Shown in pieces: positions 1 to 4,436 of a stretch of DNA of 4,436 nt. Positions within the stretch are counted from its first letter, which is position 1, and the number at the start of each line of letters is the position of its first letter. The stretch is from the IMG/VR virus record IMGVR_UViG_2582580962_000008; one strand, 5' to 3'. The DNA comes from a virus. Taxonomy: Duplodnaviria; Heunggongvirae; Uroviricota; Caudoviricetes. Both the position numbers and the translations under genes were made by a program. Under the pieces are notes generated by a model, which was not told the DNA's origin, ran no database searches, and worked only from the letters and a program-made list of their open reading frames with translations.

Positions 1-1
1 A

Positions 2-220
2 GAGCAAGTGGCTGATTGTTACCGTCTGCGATGGCAAATTGAACTGGCTTTTAAGCGGCTCAAAAGTTTGCTGCACCTGGATGCTTTGCGTGCAAAGGAA
101 CCTGAACTCGCGAAAGCGTGGATATTTGCTAATCTACTCGCCGCATTTTTAATTGACGACATAATCCAGCCATCGCTGGATTTCCCCCCCAGAAGTGCCG
201 GATCCGAAAAGAAGAACTAA
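2..220 (+). CDS. insL: IS4-family transposase (IS186 InsL-like), C-terminal fragment; the 5' end is outside the window
   Basis: Frame is open from the window edge to TAA at 218-220. The translation ...VADCYRLRWQIELAFKRLKSLLHLDALRA... carries the Y-x2-R-x3-E-x6-K motif typical of IS4-family DDE transposases. The IS186 terminal repeat lies about 150 bp downstream. Confidence 0.8.
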   Translation, partial: EQVADCYRLRWQIELAFKRLKSLLHLDALRAKEPELAKAWIFANLLAAFLIDDIIQPSLDFPPRSAGSEKKN

Positions 221-368
221 CTCGTTGTGGAGAATAACAAAAATGGTCATCTGGAGCTTACAGGTGGCCATTCGTGGGACAGTATCCCTGACAGCCTACA
301 AAACGCAATTGAAGAACGCGAGGCATCGTCTTAACGAGGCACCGAGGCGTCGCATTCTTCAGATGGTT

Positions 369-391
369 CAACCCTTAAGTTAGCGCTTATG
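369..391. repeat. Right terminal inverted repeat of IS186 (23 bp)
   Basis: CAACCCTTAAGTTAGCGCTTATG is the reverse complement of CATAAGCGCTAACTTAAGGGTTG, the IS186 terminal sequence as I remember it. It is followed immediately by a GGG-TAAA-CCCC target-like sequence. Confidence 0.65.
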
Positions 392-630
392 GGGTAAACC
401 CCGAAACCATGCTGGAAGGTGTGAAACGCTACGCGGGCTGGGTATCTGCGATGGGCAATAGCGGCACACAATTTGTGAAACAGGCTGTCACGTTCTTTGG
501 TCCGGATCGTCATTTCGAAGAATCCTGGGAAGTTCCTGCGGTATCTGCAGCCAGACGCGAGGACCCGTACTTCAAAGCCAGTTACGACAACGTGGACTAC
601 AGCCAGATCCCGACAGGATTCAGGGGGTGA
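392..630 (+). pseudogene. Probable 3' remnant of a phage ORF interrupted by the IS186 insertion (hypothetical protein, C-terminal ~79 codons)
   Basis: Frame 1 is open from inside the IS end to TGA at 628-630. No convincing RBS precedes the internal ATG at 409. The stop overlaps the RBS and start of the next gene (GGGGGTGATCATG), a sign of a once-functional coupled gene. The translation (...GWVSAMGNSGTQFVKQAVTFFGPDRHFEESWEVP...YFKASYDNVDYSQIPTGFRG) matches no family I can name. Confidence 0.4.
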
Positions 631-632
631 TC

Positions 633-1121
633 ATGAGTCTGATGAACGATGTACAGAAATTCATTGAAGCCCATCCGGGGTGTACTTCAGGTGACATTGC
701 GGATGCTTTTGCTGGTTACTCACGACAGTGCGTTCTGCAGTCAGCAAGCAAGTTACGTCAGAGTGGCCGTGTGGCTCACTGTTGTGAAGGGAAAACACGC
801 AGACATTTCCCACACCAGGCTGAGATATCGCAGGAGGAGAAACTGCAACCTGTTCTTGAAACCATACCTGTGCGCAATTTCTATGTCGGCACTAACGATC
901 CCCGGGTGATTTTGTGCCTGACCCGCCAGGCGGAAGAACTGGAGTCCAGGGGCTTATACCGTCGTGCTGCAACCGTGTGGATGGCGGCATTCCGTGAAAG
1001 CCACTCCCAGCCAGAACGAAACAATTTTCTGGCGCGTCGTGAGCGGTGCTTACGGAAAAGCAGAAAGCGCGCTGTAGCGGGTGATGAGTGGTATCTGTCA
1101 GGGAATTACGTGGGGGCTTAA
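633..1121 (+). CDS. PerC-like transcriptional regulator family protein with an N-terminal extension (about 162 aa)
   Basis: ATG at 633 follows a GGGGG RBS (623-627); the track start at 627 is a GTG inside that RBS. The C-terminal half carries a PerC/Pch-type motif (AEELESRGLYRRAATVWMAAF), matched from memory against EPEC PerC and EHEC Pch proteins. The stop TAA at 1119-1121 overlaps the next start (TAATG). Confidence 0.55.
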   Translation: MSLMNDVQKFIEAHPGCTSGDIADAFAGYSRQCVLQSASKLRQSGRVAHCCEGKTRRHFPHQAEISQEEKLQPVLETIPVRNFYVGTNDPRVILCLTRQAEELESRGLYRRAATVWMAAFRESHSQPERNNFLARRERCLRKSRKRAVAGDEWYLSGNYVGA

Positions 1122-1774
1122 TGAGTAATAAATATTGCCAGGCGCTGGTGGAACTACGGAACAAACCAGCCCATGAACTGAAGGAAGTGGGCGATCAGTG
1201 GCGCACGCCGGACAACATTTTCTGGGGAATTAACACCCTGTTTGGCCCGTTTGTTCTGGATCTGTTTACTGACGGTGATAACGCCAAATGTGCCGCGTAT
1301 TACACGGCGGAAGACAACGCGCTGGCACATGACTGGTCAGAACGTCTTGCGGAGCTTAAAGGTGCTGCCTTTGGTAATCCCCCGTACAGCCGCGCCAGTC
1401 AGCATGAGGGACAATACATCACCGGCATGCGTTACATCATGAAGCATGCCAGTGCCATGCGTGATAAAGGCGGGCGCTATGTTTTCCTGATCAAAGCGGC
1501 CACCAGCGAAGTGTGGTGGCCGGAAGATGCAGATCATATTGCTTTTATTCGCGGGCGTATTGGTTTTGAACTGCCAGCCTGGTTTATCCCGAAAGACGAA
1601 AAGCAGGTGCCAACAGGTGCTTTCTTCGCTGGTGCTATTGCTGTTTTCGACAAGACCTGGAAGGGAGCGGCAATCAGCTACATCGGGCGCGATGAACTTG
1701 AGGCATGTGGTGAGGCATTTCTGGCGCAGGTTCGCCAGCAGGCGGAAAAACTGGTCAGGGAGATGGCGGCATGA
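1121..1774 (+). CDS. Phage Dam-family DNA N6-adenine methyltransferase (orphan)
   Basis: ATG at 1121 is preceded by a GGGGG RBS (1112-1116) and overlaps the upstream stop; the track start at 1088 is an upstream GTG. The protein has the (D/N)PPY catalytic motif of N6-adenine methyltransferases (AAFGNPPYS) and an N-terminal WRTPDNIFWG...FVLDLFTDGDNAKC region typical of the phage Dam family. The stop overlaps the next start (ATGA at 1771-1774). Confidence 0.85.
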   Translation: MSNKYCQALVELRNKPAHELKEVGDQWRTPDNIFWGINTLFGPFVLDLFTDGDNAKCAAYYTAEDNALAHDWSERLAELKGAAFGNPPYSRASQHEGQYITGMRYIMKHASAMRDKGGRYVFLIKAATSEVWWPEDADHIAFIRGRIGFELPAWFIPKDEKQVPTGAFFAGAIAVFDKTWKGAAISYIGRDELEACGEAFLAQVRQQAEKLVREMAA

Positions 1775-2097
1775 CGACATTAACTCAATGCCAGCAGCAG
1801 GTGCTGGATATGCTGATTTCTTATCAGAAAGAACGTGGCTTCCCGCCAACCAATCAGGAGGTGGCAACCATGCTGGGATACCGTTCGGTGAATGCAGCGG
1901 TGGAGCATCTTCGCGCACTGGAGAAAAAAGGTGTCATCACGATAAAGCGTGGCGTGGCCCGGGGTATCACTCTTCATACCGCGGTGAAGGACGACGACAG
2001 CGAGGCGGTCGGGATTATCCGCGCCCTGCTTGCCGGTGAGGCAAACGCCAGGCTGCGTGCAGCCCACTGGTTACATGAGAGGGGCCTGAAAGTATGA
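1771..2097 (+). CDS. LexA-like protein consisting of the N-terminal winged-helix DNA-binding domain only (108 aa; no S24 peptidase domain)
   Basis: A GGGAG RBS (1758-1762) precedes the ATG. The protein aligns by eye over about 65 residues with the E. coli LexA N-terminus (LTxxQQxVxDxI...GxPPTxxExAxxLGxRSxNAAxEHLxALxKKGVIxIxxGxxRGIxL), including the RS-NAA-EHL recognition-helix region. It ends about 40 residues after the DNA-binding domain with a LexA hinge-like LLAGEANA segment and no Ser/Lys catalytic core. The stop overlaps the rusA start (ATGA). Confidence 0.85.
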   Translation: MTTLTQCQQQVLDMLISYQKERGFPPTNQEVATMLGYRSVNAAVEHLRALEKKGVITIKRGVARGITLHTAVKDDDSEAVGIIRALLAGEANARLRAAHWLHERGLKV

Positions 2098-2489
2098 AGC
2101 TAATACTGCCTTTTCCGCCCAGCGTGAACACGTACTGGCGACACCCCAACAAAGGGGCGTTTGCTGGTAAGAGCCTGATAAGCGCGGCGGGGCGAAAATT
2201 CCAGAGCGCGGCGTGTGCAGCAATAGTTGAGCAGTTACGTCGTCTGCCGAAACCAACGTCGGCACCTGCTTCAGTGGAGATCGTGTTGTTTCCTCCGGAT
2301 AACCGGATCCGCGATCTGGACAACTATAACAAGGCGCTGTTTGACGCCCTGACCCACGCGGGTGTGTGGGAAGACGACAGCCAGGTGAAAAGAATGCTGG
2401 TGGAGTGGGGACCGGTTATCCCGGAAGGGAAGGTCGAGATCACTATCAGTAAGTACGAAAAAGCGAGTTGCAAATTAGCAACTCGGTAA
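2094..2489 (+). CDS. rusA: RusA-family Holliday junction resolvase (crossover junction endodeoxyribonuclease)
   Basis: The N-terminal LPFPPSVNTYWRH matches the RusA LPWPPSxNxYYRH motif. The catalytic block RDLDNYNKALFDALTHAGVWEDDSQV corresponds to E. coli RusA D70/D72/K76/D91 ([28 protein letters not shown]). ATG at 2094 overlaps the upstream stop; TAA at 2487-2489. Confidence 0.9.
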   Translation: MKLILPFPPSVNTYWRHPNKGAFAGKSLISAAGRKFQSAACAAIVEQLRRLPKPTSAPASVEIVLFPPDNRIRDLDNYNKALFDALTHAGVWEDDSQVKRMLVEWGPVIPEGKVEITISKYEKASCKLATR

Positions 2490-2534: not shown

Positions 2535-2554
2535 TACTGTATTTATGAACAGTG
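2535..2554. promoter_or_regulatory. LexA (SOS) box-like operator: TACTGTATTTATGAACAGTG
   Basis: CTGT-N8-ACAG with an AT-rich spacer, matching the E. coli SOS box consensus TACTGTATATATATACAGTA at 16 of 20 positions, with both CTGT/ACAG half-sites intact. This is the only CTGT-N8-ACAG in the window. It sits in the intergenic region 98 bp upstream of the KilA-N gene start and directly abuts a -35-like TTGATA. Confidence 0.6.
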
Positions 2555-2651: not shown

Positions 2652-3467
2652 ATGAATCAGTTGCTTGTAATTGATGGCGTTTCTGTGCGCCAGTACTTCG
2701 AATCTAACTACTGTCTTAACGACCTTCAGAAAGCTGCTCTTCTTGCCGCTGGTGAGAATCGCTCCTCCCGTTCGCTGGAAGTTCACGAGTTTATGCGTCG
2801 TCCTGAAACGAAGGCTCTTGTGGAATTATTGGAAGAAGAAACTACGGGAGATTCCCGTAGTATTCCTGTCATCACCATTCAGGGGCGCAATGGTGGGACG
2901 TATGTCTGTAAAGAGCTGGTCTATGCATATGCAATGTGGATCAGCCCGGCATTCAGCTTAAAAGTGATACGTACTTTTGATGCGCTTCATAATTCATCAC
3001 CAGAAGAAACCACATCCGACAAAATTAAATCCGGGGTCATTCTGCTTGAATCAGCAGCAAAGACTCTAAATCTGTCAAACTCCTCGAAACTTGGTGCATA
3101 CCAGAAATTATCAAAGGTAGCTGGTCTTCCTGAACTTATGCCGATCTATGCCATTGATGCACCTGCTGATGCGCCAGATGGTTCAAGCCGCCCTACGCTG
3201 TCGCTGAGTGCACTGCTGAAGCAGTATGGTATCCGCCTGACGGCTAATCAGGCATATCACCAGATGGCGAAGCTGGGGATCGTTGAACAACGCGAACGAT
3301 ACAGCCGTACCGCGATTAACAACATCAAAAAATTCTGGTCGCTGACAGCGAAAGGCTGCATGTTCGGCAAGAACATCACCAGTCCTGCAAATCCGCGCGA
3401 GACGCAGCCGCATTTCTTCGAATCCCGATTCCCTGAGCTGTTAAAGCTGCTCGATACCGTTCATTGA
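2652..3467 (+). CDS. KilA-N domain protein (antirepressor-like or Roi-like DNA-binding protein; C-terminal domain uncharacterised)
   Basis: ATG at 2652 follows a GGAG RBS (2642-2645) with a 6-nt spacer; the track start at 2640 is a GTG overlapping that RBS. The N-terminal domain has the KilA-N hallmark block GTYVCKELVYAYAMWISPAFSLKVI (family pattern GTWVHPxLAxxFAxWLSPxF) and the upstream YCLNDLQKAA segment. The stop TGA at 3465-3467 overlaps the RBS of the next gene. Confidence 0.8.
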   Translation: MNQLLVIDGVSVRQYFESNYCLNDLQKAALLAAGENRSSRSLEVHEFMRRPETKALVELLEEETTGDSRSIPVITIQGRNGGTYVCKELVYAYAMWISPAFSLKVIRTFDALHNSSPEETTSDKIKSGVILLESAAKTLNLSNSSKLGAYQKLSKVAGLPELMPIYAIDAPADAPDGSSRPTLSLSALLKQYGIRLTANQAYHQMAKLGIVEQRERYSRTAINNIKKFWSLTAKGCMFGKNITSPANPRETQPHFFESRFPELLKLLDTVH

Positions 3468-3474
3468 GGTGACC

Positions 3475-4436
3475 GTGAGAGCACTACTGACCCCTGAAAT
3501 TGCCCCGCGTATGGGGATCGTATTGTTCAGACCAGGTTCAGAGCTGATGCCCCTGTTTATGCAGGGGCGTGTCCTGCTGGAGCCTGAGCCGGAGCGTTAT
3601 TCATCTTTCGCCAGTGGTGCCGTTCCGGCGGCATCACAACCGCTGGCGGATGATCCTGCCGTTCGGGCCGTGTTCCGCAATGAGGCAGTGATCCGTCGTG
3701 CTGGTGGCGTGGAATGTCTTGAAAGCTGGTTACTTCGTGAAAAAGGCTGCCAGTGGCCTCATTCCGACTGGCACAGCGAGAACATGACCACAATGCGACA
3801 CGCTCCGGGTGCAATCCGTCTGTGCTGGCACTGCGATAATCAGCTGCGCGATCAGTTCACGGAACGGCTGGAATCAATGGCAACGGATAACTGTGCCCGC
3901 TGGGTGTTGTCTGTTGTGCGTCGGGATCTCGGTTTTGATGACAGTCACGTTGTGACAATGCCGGAACTGTGCTGGTGGCTGATTCGTAATGATCTGGCGG
4001 ATGCCTTACCGGAAAGTGCAGCCCGTAAGGCCCTGAGATTACCGAAGCCTGTTGTGCCGTCTGTCACCCGGGAAAGTGACCTTGTGCCTTCGGTTACTGC
4101 CACCAGCATCATCCAGGATAAGGCGAAAAAGGTGCTGGCGCTGAAAGTGGATCCGGAGTCGCCGGAGTCTTTTATGTTACGCCCAAAACGTCGTCGCTGG
4201 GTTAATGAAAAGTACACGCGCTGGGTTAAGACGCAGCCGTGTGCATGTTGTGGTAAGCCAGCCGACGATCCTCATCACCTGATTGGTCATGGTCAGGGTG
4301 GAATGGGTACAAAAGCGCATGACCTTTTTGTGTTGCCTTTGTGCAGAAAACACCATGACGAACTGCATGCGGATACCGTGGCATTTGAAGAGAAGTATGG
4401 TTCCCAACTGGAGCTGATATTTCGTTTTATCGATCG
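3475..4436 (+). CDS. DUF968-like prophage protein with a C-terminal Cys/His (HNH-like or zinc-binding) cluster; the 3' end is outside the window
   Basis: An uninterrupted frame-1 ORF runs from GTG at 3475 (GAGG RBS at 3466-3469, 5-nt spacer) to the window end, about 320 codons. It is absent from the track because no stop falls within the window. The C-terminal region CACCGKPADDPHHLIGHGQGGMGTKAHDLFVLPLCRKHHDELH is the conserved DUF968-type Cys/His block as I recall it (K-12 Qin YdfU is the family member I have in mind). The start codon choice (3469, 3475 or ATG 3511) is uncertain. Confidence 0.8.
   Translation, partial: MRALLTPEIAPRMGIVLFRPGSELMPLFMQGRVLLEPEPERYSSFASGAVPAASQPLADDPAVRAVFRNEAVIRRAGGVECLESWLLREKGCQWPHSDWHSENMTTMRHAPGAIRLCWHCDNQLRDQFTERLESMATDNCARWVLSVVRRDLGFDDSHVVTMPELCWWLIRNDLADALPESAARKALRLPKPVVPSVTRESDLVPSVTATSIIQDKAKKVLALKVDPESPESFMLRPKRRRWVNEKYTRWVKTQPCACCGKPADDPHHLIGHGQGGMGTKAHDLFVLPLCRKHHDELHADTVAFEEKYGSQLELIFRFID

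What the first reader, a model, noticed from the sequence alone, without database searches (positions are those of the whole stretch)
627..2489. Four genes chained by overlapping stop/start codons
The junctions are TGAtcATG at 628-635, TAATG at 1119-1123, ATGA at 1771-1774 and ATGA at 2094-2097. This links a regulator, an epigenetic modifier, a LexA-like DNA binder and a recombination resolvase in one translationally coupled unit, implying fixed stoichiometric co-expression. The RusA association with Dam and a LexA-like protein suggests a unit acting on DNA during induction or replication.
Basis: seen in the sequence. Interest (0 to 1): 0.35.

Follow-up and report, generated by a model that had tools for sequence, protein, structure and literature searches.

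The report
Overlapping early genes of a prophage
The four head-to-tail overlapping genes are real, but they are an ordinary, already-annotated stretch of the early operon of a common E. coli/Shigella lambda-like prophage, and they are a swappable set of modules rather than a fixed four-protein machine.

Summary
[quoted passage not shown] The block is the distal half of the early-right, nin-like operon of an SfV/mEp460-type lambdoid prophage, between the replication genes and Q. It occurs at about 91% coverage in 484 complete E. coli genomes and 37 phage records, and was annotated in SfV as orf40-dam-orf42-orf43.

Overlaps of 4 or 1 nt are the rule in this operon. An intact relative has seven in a row, linking eight genes. 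Each of the four starts has its own strong Shine-Dalgarno sequence, so coupling is plausible but unproven.

A fixed four-gene unit is not supported. Dam is missing cleanly in 19 of 82 close relatives, and elsewhere it is replaced by unrelated methylases. PerC is sometimes truncated, and some RusA relatives lack the LexA-like gene.

In this window an IS421 insertion has cut the upstream replication gene. The first junction therefore follows a gene remnant and is a 2-nt gap, not an overlap.

One lead survives. The LexA-like to RusA overlap is present in 82 of 82 loci, and rare natural LexA-domain-RusA fusion proteins exist.

The parts
1..391 (+). Right end of an IS421 (IS186/IS4-like) insertion sequence; the transposase C-terminus is at 8-220 and the terminal repeat ends near 369-391
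   Evidence: Pfam DDE_Tnp_1; NCBIfam IS4 family; 100% identical copies annotated as IS421 in over 2000 E. coli genomes; homology to prophages starts at 391
409..630 (+). Remnant (last 73 codons) of the phage replication-initiation gene, cut by the IS
   Evidence: PHROG replication protein families; 100% identical to the 3' end of the 984-nt gene at L001 11257-12240
633..1121 (+). PerC/YfdN-like protein, 162 aa (PGAP uses the alternative start GTG 627)
   Evidence: PF06069 36.9 bits against cut-off 22.6; phrog_1324; Shine-Dalgarno duplex -10.7 kcal/mol for ATG 633
1119..1123 (+). TAATG junction, 1-nt overlap between PerC-like and Dam
   Evidence: the same sequence in 57 of 58 relatives that have Dam
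1121..1774 (+). Phage N6-adenine DNA methyltransferase (Dam), 217 aa, with an NPPY motif
   Evidence: PF05869 153.5 bits; TIGR01712 254 bits against cut-off 97; the NPPY motif is visible in the translation
1771..1774 (+). ATGA junction, 4-nt overlap between Dam and the LexA-like gene
   Evidence: conserved in relatives
1771..2097 (+). Protein with only the LexA DNA-binding domain, 108 aa: a winged helix-turn-helix plus a C-terminal two-helix hairpin, with no peptidase domain
   Evidence: PF01726 69 bits; aligns to E. coli LexA residues 2-70 or 2-86, E about 1e-15; AF2 model with mean pLDDT 79
2094..2097 (+). ATGA junction, 4-nt overlap between the LexA-like gene and RusA
   Evidence: present in 82 of 82 close loci; ATGA or GTGA also in Citrobacter, Salmonella, Hafnia and Cronobacter
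2094..2489 (+). RusA-family Holliday junction resolvase, 131 aa, with the catalytic residues conserved
   Evidence: PF05866 56.3 bits; aligned to PDB 1q8r with the R-D-L-D-N...K...DD motif kept; the residues are defined in PMC1636454
2490..2651 (+). 162-nt spacer that ends the chain; it holds an SOS-box-like palindrome at 2535-2554 and weak promoter-like hexamers at 2560-2588
   Evidence: CTGT-N8-ACAG occurs once against 0.07 expected; 16 of 20 match to the consensus; the spacer variant is present in 17 of 79 loci scored and in SfIV and PhiR49_1
2652..3467 (+). KilA-N domain protein, the next gene of the operon
   Evidence: PF04383; annotated in L001
3475..4436 (+). DUF968/HNH-like protein, which runs off the window; Q antiterminator follows in relatives
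   Evidence: PF06147 260 bits; L001 annotation

Best explanation
The four genes are the promoter-distal part of the delayed-early rightward operon of an SfV/mEp460/SfIV-type lambdoid prophage. This is the functional counterpart of the lambda ninR region, lying between the replication genes and the Q antiterminator.

In an intact phage they would be transcribed from the early rightward promoter next to cro after induction, as one long message (inferred). Genes in this operon are packed stop-on-start. A ribosome finishing one gene can restart on the next, and each start also carries its own Shine-Dalgarno sequence inside the upstream gene. This gives compact, correlated expression, not fixed ratios (inferred).

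The products are independent accessory modules. They are a PerC-like regulator, a Dam methylase that would mark phage DNA, a LexA-domain DNA binder of unknown target, and RusA, which would cut branched DNA. The modules are gained, lost and swapped exactly at the ATGA/TAATG joints (shown).

In this window an IS421 insertion has cut the operon upstream. The block is therefore probably disconnected from its normal promoter (the insertion is shown, the consequence is inferred).
For: Position and orientation between cro/replication genes and Q are seen in L001, SfV, SfIV and in Citrobacter, Salmonella, Hafnia, Cronobacter and Klebsiella prophages.

About 91% of the window is matched at 97-99% identity in 484 E. 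coli genomes and in 37 phage records.

Shine-Dalgarno energies are -7.6 to -10.7 kcal/mol, in the top 0.6-3.7% of window positions.

There are no + strand promoter-like or terminator-like sites inside 627-2489. The promoter annotated for dam in the SfV record has weak hexamers (TTGCGC/TACGGA), and the -35 is further degraded to TGGCGC in the window.

Module swapping at the joints is shown, and the alternative methylases. The IS421 truncation is shown.

For precedent, lambda ninR genes are expressed from pR in the lytic cycle, and the region was described as 'a chain of interlinked genes' (Kroger and Hobom 1982, as cited in PMC7166090). Overlapping pairs are generally coupled (PMC6728339, PMC10666635).
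Against: No transcript or translation data were available for this block. The promoter, antitermination and coupling steps are inferred from gene order and sequence signals.

RNA folding around the junctions shows no unusually stable structure (z from -0.93 to +0.67). Nothing therefore indicates that downstream starts depend on upstream translation, and coupling could be weak.

The invariant LexA-like/RusA overlap and the natural fusions suggest that at least this pair is more than two independent modules.
Confidence: 0.8

Rival explanations
1. One reading: the four genes form one translationally coupled functional unit. Their products would be made in fixed ratios and act together on DNA during induction or replication.
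For: The overlapping junctions and internal Shine-Dalgarno sites are real. The gene order is conserved in several genera. Overlapping pairs are enriched for subunits of heteromeric complexes in general (PMC10666635). Three of the four products are DNA-directed.
Against: Dam is cleanly absent in 19 of 82 close relatives and in the viable phage SfIV. Elsewhere it is replaced by non-homologous methylases. PerC is truncated or reduced to 78 aa in some loci. The LexA-like gene is absent or replaced upstream of close RusA relatives. The chain extends to eight genes in intact prophages.
Confidence: 0.05
2. Only the last two genes form a true pair. The LexA-domain protein would be a DNA-binding partner or regulator of RusA, made next to it by coupled translation. 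Its C-terminal two-helix hairpin would serve as the docking or dimerising element.
For: The 4-nt overlap is present in 82 of 82 loci. It is kept as ATGA or GTGA in relatives whose LexA-like protein is only about 65% identical to the window's.

Five distinct 208-aa proteins join the LexA domain directly to RusA Met1. They lack exactly the hairpin, occur on at least 10 contigs, and their differences are concentrated in the linker.

The AF2 model shows the hairpin as a confident separate module after a floppy linker. RusA acts as a dimer (PMC1636454), which could pair two DNA-binding domains.
Against: RusA at 78-82% identity occurs with no LexA-like gene (Salmonella) or with an unrelated 75-aa ORF (Klebsiella).

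The fusions are rare: each cluster has one member and all come from metagenome contigs. A Dam-RusA fusion also exists, so neighbours that overlap can fuse by simple deletion. No interaction was modelled or measured.
Confidence: 0.2
3. The LexA-domain protein is a transcription factor of the GIL01 gp6 kind. As a non-cleavable LexA look-alike, it would bind SOS-box-like sites in the phage or the host.
For: It aligns with E. coli LexA residues 2-70, at 44% identity in the alignment. Four of the five DNA-contact residues listed for E. coli LexA are kept (S39, N41, A42, E45; E44 is V) (PMC13416735).

GIL01 gp6 is a truncated LexA homologue that activates a late promoter (PMC6182141).

A 16/20 SOS-box match lies 46 nt downstream of rusA in this window. 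L001 has 4 CTGT-N8-ACAG sites against 0.41 expected.
Against: The SOS-box spacer is absent from 62 of 79 scored loci that carry the LexA-like gene. The most divergent family member has G at position 45. There is no LexA dimerisation domain. Host LexA alone would explain the box. Two of the four L001 sites lie inside coding regions, and the one upstream of Rha lacks the usual TA flanks.
Confidence: 0.15
4. The overlaps are only a by-product of genome compaction. Every gene would be translated independently from its own ribosome-binding site, with no meaningful coupling.
For: All four starts have strong Shine-Dalgarno sequences of their own. There is no stable structure masking the starts. Modules can be exchanged at the joints without loss of the downstream start.
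Against: In E. coli, 4-nt and 1-nt overlapping pairs tested with reporters were almost always strictly coupled (PMC6728339). The overlap geometry is kept even where the joint sequence changes (ATGA to GTGA).
Confidence: 0.2

Closest known systems
Bacteriophage lambda ninR region ('a chain of interlinked genes', Kroger and Hobom 1982, as cited in PMC7166090)
   Same: It has the same place in the genome, between the replication genes and Q. It has the same strand and the same packing of small accessory genes. It includes a junction resolvase, and in lambda it is expressed from pR in the lytic cycle.
   Different: The gene content differs: PerC-like, Dam, LexA-domain protein and RusA here, against ninA-I, orf and rap in lambda (the lambda gene list is from my own knowledge). 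That the lambda ninR genes overlap stop-on-start is inferred from the paper's title and my own memory, because the 1982 paper could not be read here.
Shigella phage SfV orf40-dam-orf42-orf43 (GenBank U82619.2) and the E. coli K-12 CPS-53 genes yfdN/yfdM
   Same: It is the same block. The proteins are 87-99% identical, and the TAATG and ATGA junctions are the same. yfdN is the K-12 PerC homologue (PMC5931665).
   Different: The window has a 131-aa RusA tail variant followed by a 162-nt spacer with an SOS-box-like site, where SfV has a 19-nt gap. The window also has IS421 inserted upstream. The K-12 gene order is from my own knowledge and was not checked here.
GIL01 gp6, a phage-encoded truncated LexA homologue (PMC6182141)
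   Same: It is a small phage protein that consists mainly of the LexA winged-helix DNA-binding domain and lacks the cleavage domain.
   Different: GIL01 is a Bacillus tectivirus, and gp6 is a shown activator of a late promoter. The protein here has an extra two-helix hairpin, always sits stop-on-start before RusA, and has no known target.
Termination-reinitiation coupling at -4/-1 nt overlapping gene pairs (PMC6728339, PMC10666635)
   Same: The ATGA and TAATG geometry is identical, and a Shine-Dalgarno sequence lies inside the upstream gene.
   Different: Coupling was measured for other E. coli gene pairs, not for these.

Membership tests
Lambdoid nin-type delayed-early operon | Lies between the replication genes and the Q antiterminator, on the same strand as cro | tested here: met
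   L001 and SfV annotation, plus gene contexts in six genera
Lambdoid nin-type delayed-early operon | Transcribed from the early rightward promoter after induction | not testable with these tools
   There are no internal + strand promoter or terminator matches. In this window IS421 separates the block from the promoter.
Termination-reinitiation coupled gene pairs | Stop and start overlap by 4 or 1 nt | tested here: met
   The three junctions between the four genes overlap. The upstream junction is a 2-nt gap if ATG 633 is used.
Termination-reinitiation coupled gene pairs | Downstream translation depends on upstream translation | not testable with these tools
   Only indirect evidence is available: Shine-Dalgarno sites within upstream genes and no masking structure.
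   Dam is absent, replaced or deleted; PerC is truncated; the LexA-like gene is absent upstream of close RusA relatives.
RusA Holliday junction resolvase | RusA fold with the catalytic residues equivalent to D70, D72, K76 and D90/91 | tested here: met
   PF05866; alignment to 1q8r keeps RDLDN...K...DD; residue list from PMC1636454. It scores below the NCBIfam exception model for K-12 RusA (71.5 against 200), so it belongs to a different subfamily.
Phage Dam (PF05869 / TIGR01712) | Model match above the cut-off and an NPPY catalytic motif | tested here: met
   254 bits against cut-off 97; NPPY is in the translation. GATC methylation was not tested.
LexA repressor (TIGR00498) | N-terminal DNA-binding domain plus a C-terminal S24 self-cleaving peptidase domain | tested here: not met
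   Only the DNA-binding domain is present in 108 aa. TIGR00498 gives 70.7 bits against cut-off 110.95 and matches profile positions 1-91 only.
GIL01 gp6-like truncated LexA homologues | LexA DNA-binding domain alone, encoded by a phage | tested here: met
GIL01 gp6-like truncated LexA homologues | Binds and activates a phage promoter | not testable with these tools
   Four of five LexA contact residues are kept (PMC13416735). No target is known.
PerC family | PF06069 domain above the cut-off | tested here: met
   36.9 bits against cut-off 22.6, residues 98-151. Activation of ler was not tested.

The most novel reading that the evidence does not exclude
The small LexA-domain protein may be a dedicated DNA-binding partner of the RusA resolvase rather than a repressor. 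It is made stop-on-start with RusA in every locus examined, and in one lineage it is fused to RusA, with loss of its C-terminal hairpin. This would be an accessory or targeting subunit for a RusA-family resolvase. I found no such subunit in the papers searched. It might link junction cutting to SOS-box-like sites.
Probability: 0.2. Interest if true: 0.45.

Novelty: already known. Interest (0 to 1): 0.13.

Why it matters
As a gene chain it matters little. It is a textbook-style example of the tight packing and module swapping in the early operons of lambda-like phages, and the same block is already annotated in many genomes.

Its use is as a clean illustration that phage modules are exchanged exactly at ATGA/TAATG joints without disturbing the neighbour's start.

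The only part that could repay bench work is the LexA-domain protein that always precedes RusA and is sometimes fused to it. If the two work together, that would add a new accessory factor to a well-studied resolvase family. It would also assign a role to a gene that the first protein search found mainly in Enterobacteriaceae prophage sequences and that remains uncharacterised.

Tried and rejected
Internal promoter for dam. The SfV record annotates -35/-10 signals inside orf40. The hexamers are weak (TTGCGC/TACGGA), the -35 is TGGCGC in the window, and the scan found nothing, so I rejected this as evidence against co-transcription.

RNA structure that would force coupling. Folding of 81-nt windows at each junction was no more stable than shuffles.

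Known RNA families. Rfam gave no match at E up to 1.

GTG 627 as the PerC start. I rejected it in favour of ATG 633 because of the Shine-Dalgarno strength and the free variation of the two bases between TGA and ATG.

Wider taxonomic sampling of the LexA-like family in species genomes. The scan returned only 7 loci because the patterns were strict.

Wider fusion survey. The representative-library search with the fusion protein mostly returned plain RusA. N-terminally extended hits had no recognisable LexA domain, and one was a Dam-RusA fusion.

Papers not held. Zhang et al. 2010 (LexA-DNA structure) and my guessed PMC id for Allison et al. 2002 (SfV genome) could not be read. LexA contact residues are therefore cited second-hand (PMC13416735), and SfV Dam activity is not claimed.

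Pas sRNA link. The preprint mentions RusA only as a neighbouring marker gene, with no bearing on this block.
Full report
**Observation**

They are TGA-tc-ATG at 628-635, TAATG at 1119-1123, ATGA at 1771-1774 and ATGA at 2094-2097. The ORFs they join are 633-1121, 1121-1774, 1771-2097 and 2094-2489 on the + strand.

These are PerC (PF06069), phage Dam (PF05869), the LexA DNA-binding domain alone (PF01726, 108 aa, no peptidase domain) and RusA (PF05866). NCBIfam and PHROGs agree. RusA keeps the catalytic R-D-L-D-N...K...DD residues when aligned to the E. coli structure (residues defined in PMC1636454). Dam has the NPPY motif.

**Two corrections to the observation**

The first junction is not an overlap if ATG 633 is the start, and I think it is.
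- Its Shine-Dalgarno pairing is -10.7 kcal/mol, in the top 0.6% of window positions. GTG 627, which PGAP uses, gives only -5.3.
- The two bases between TGA and ATG vary freely in relatives.

The ORF before that junction (409-630) is not a gene. It is the last 73 codons of a phage replication gene. Window 1-391 is the right end of IS421, inserted at a GGGGTAAACCCC target.

**What the block is**

About 91% of the window, everything except the IS, is matched at 97-99% identity in 484 complete E. coli genomes. It is also matched in 37 phage records. These include SfV, SfII, SfIV, mEp460, cdtI, several Stx2 phages and the PhiR phages.

In an intact prophage (L001) the gene order on one strand is cro, ymfL, Rha, two small ORFs, the replication gene, PerC, Dam, LexA-like, RusA, KilA-N, DUF968 and Q. 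The same order was annotated in SfV as orf40-dam-orf42-orf43.

This is the position of the lambda ninR region. Its genes are expressed from pR in the lytic cycle, and it was described in 1982 as 'a chain of interlinked genes' (citation and expression statement in PMC7166090).

**Is the chain more than chance?**

Not for this kind of DNA.
- In L001, 15 of 46 same-strand neighbours overlap, 12 of them by exactly 4 or 1 nt.
- The early-right operon has seven such junctions in a row, linking eight genes from Rha to RusA.
- Across prokaryotes, -4 and -1 nt are the commonest spacings of co-directional genes (PMC10666635).

**Signals for expression**

No sigma-70-like promoter or intrinsic-terminator-like site lies on the + strand within 627-2489. 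The putative dam promoter annotated inside SfV orf40 has poor hexamers and is further degraded in the window.

Each of the four starts has a Shine-Dalgarno sequence inside the preceding gene. The energies are -10.7, -8.4, -8.2 and -7.6 kcal/mol, all in the top 4% of positions. Folding around the junctions is no more stable than shuffled controls.

This geometry matches the gene pairs that were strictly coupled in reporter tests in E. coli (PMC6728339). Coupling is therefore a reasonable inference. It was not tested here, and the strong independent ribosome sites mean it need not be obligatory.

**Is it a fixed unit?**

No. Among 82 loci whose LexA-like protein is 95-100% identical to the window's:
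- 58 have an intact Dam.
- 19 lack it cleanly, with the PerC stop joined to the LexA-like start as TAATGA.
- 3 carry a deletion from PerC codon 103 into the end of dam.
- 2 have partial dam.

The cassette is bounded by ATGA at both ends. SfIV, an isolated infectious phage, has PerC followed directly by the LexA-like gene.

In other genera the same slot is filled differently.
- Klebsiella has an MT-A70 methylase.
- Salmonella has a D12-class methylase.
- A metagenomic lineage has Dam plus a C5 methylase.
- Citrobacter has nothing there.

PerC is cut down to 26 or 103 residues in some E. coli loci and is only 78 aa in Cronobacter. RusA relatives at about 78-82% identity are preceded by no LexA-like gene in Salmonella. 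In Klebsiella they are preceded by an unrelated 75-aa ORF.

Synteny is therefore conserved as a set of slots, not as four obligate partners.

**The one tighter link**

The LexA-like stop overlaps the RusA start by 4 nt in 82 of 82 close loci. It also does so, as ATGA or GTGA, in Citrobacter, Salmonella, Hafnia and Cronobacter. In Citrobacter the LexA-like protein is only about 65% identical to the window's.

The RusA homology search turned up five distinct 208-aa proteins that carry both domains.
- The LexA winged-helix domain (about 70 residues) is joined by a short linker straight to RusA Met1.
- The same neighbourhood surrounds them (Dam, C5 methylase, fusion, antirepressor-like gene, DUF968, Q).
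- Differences between the fusion variants fall mainly in the linker.

The AF2 model of the window protein (mean pLDDT 79) shows the winged helix-turn-helix, a low-confidence linker at 69-74, and then a confident two-helix hairpin at 75-102. The hairpin is exactly what the fusions lack.

This fits a model in which the hairpin tethers or dimerises the DNA-binding domain alongside dimeric RusA.

The evidence is modest.
- Each fusion cluster has a single member sequence, all from metagenome contigs.
- A Dam-RusA fusion also exists on one short contig.
- RusA clearly works in lineages without this partner.

I found no paper in the held library that links RusA with a LexA domain.

**Alternative role for the LexA-like protein**

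It aligns with E. coli LexA residues 2-70, at 44% identity in the alignment. It keeps S39, N41, A42 and E45 of the five contact residues listed for E. coli LexA, and E44 is V (PMC13416735).

The closest characterised analogue is GIL01 gp6. That is a phage-encoded truncated LexA homologue that activates a late promoter (PMC6182141).

In this window the chain ends in a 162-nt spacer with TACTGTATTTATGAACAGTG at 2535-2554. This is a 16/20 match to the SOS-box consensus. It lies 6 nt upstream of weak promoter-like hexamers and ahead of the KilA-N gene. That spacer variant is present in only 17 of 79 scored loci, and SfV-type loci have a 19-nt gap instead. Host LexA would explain the site without involving the phage protein.

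**Verdict**

The claim of a fixed, stoichiometric four-gene DNA-processing unit is not supported.

The feature is already known and ordinary. The LexA-domain/RusA pairing and the SOS-box-like site are side leads of modest interest.

Noticed in passing
window 2535-2554 (spacer 2490-2651): An SOS-box-like palindrome, TACTGTATTTATGAACAGTG, matches the consensus at 16 of 20 positions. It lies 6 nt upstream of weak promoter-like hexamers (TTGATA-17-TAAGTT, 2560-2588) and ahead of the KilA-N gene. This suggests an SOS-controlled antirepressor-like gene. The spacer variant is shared with SfIV and PhiR49_1 and is absent from SfV-type loci.
   Followed up: partly
L098-L102 (e.g. L098 5001-5627); proteins P0207, P0187, P0204, P0211, P0222: These are natural 208-aa fusion proteins of a LexA DNA-binding domain and RusA, in related lambdoid prophage contigs. 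They lack the C-terminal two-helix hairpin of the free LexA-like protein.
   Followed up: partly
L103-L106, L111-L114, L098-L101, L084, L115 (slot equivalent to window 1121-1774): The position between the PerC-like gene and RusA holds unrelated DNA methyltransferase families in different genera (PF05869, PF05063, PF02086, PF05869 plus PF00145), or is empty. It is a functionally conserved slot filled by non-homologous genes.
   Followed up: partly
window 1-391 and 409-630: An IS421 (IS186-like) element is inserted at a GGGGTAAACCCC target inside the phage replication gene. The prophage is probably replication-defective, and the downstream genes are cut off from the early promoter. All downstream proteins are still 99-100% identical to those of an intact relative, which suggests a recent insertion.
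   Followed up: partly
L001 9698-9713; L002 (SfV) 3464-3479 and 10290-10305: Further CTGT-N8-ACAG sites recur in these phages. L001 has 4 against 0.41 expected. One lies in the gap upstream of the Rha gene in L001. One good match (TACTGTAAAAATAAACAGTG) lies just inside the start of SfV orf48, downstream of Q. Their significance is unknown.
   Followed up: partly
RefSeq phage records NC_003444.1, NC_019716.1, NC_021857.1, NC_009514.1, NC_049941.1 (equivalent of window 1121-1774): The dam gene is labelled 'phosphoadenosine phosphosulfate reductase' in these RefSeq phage annotations. The label appears to be transferred from PHROG 33262, a family of longer fused proteins. The window protein is a clear phage Dam (TIGR01712, 254 bits).
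   Followed up: no
P0242 (319 aa, a 1.9-kb metagenome contig): A single Dam-RusA fusion is made of E. coli-type sequences, with the LexA-like gene deleted. It shows that neighbours in this chain can fuse by simple deletion.
   Followed up: no
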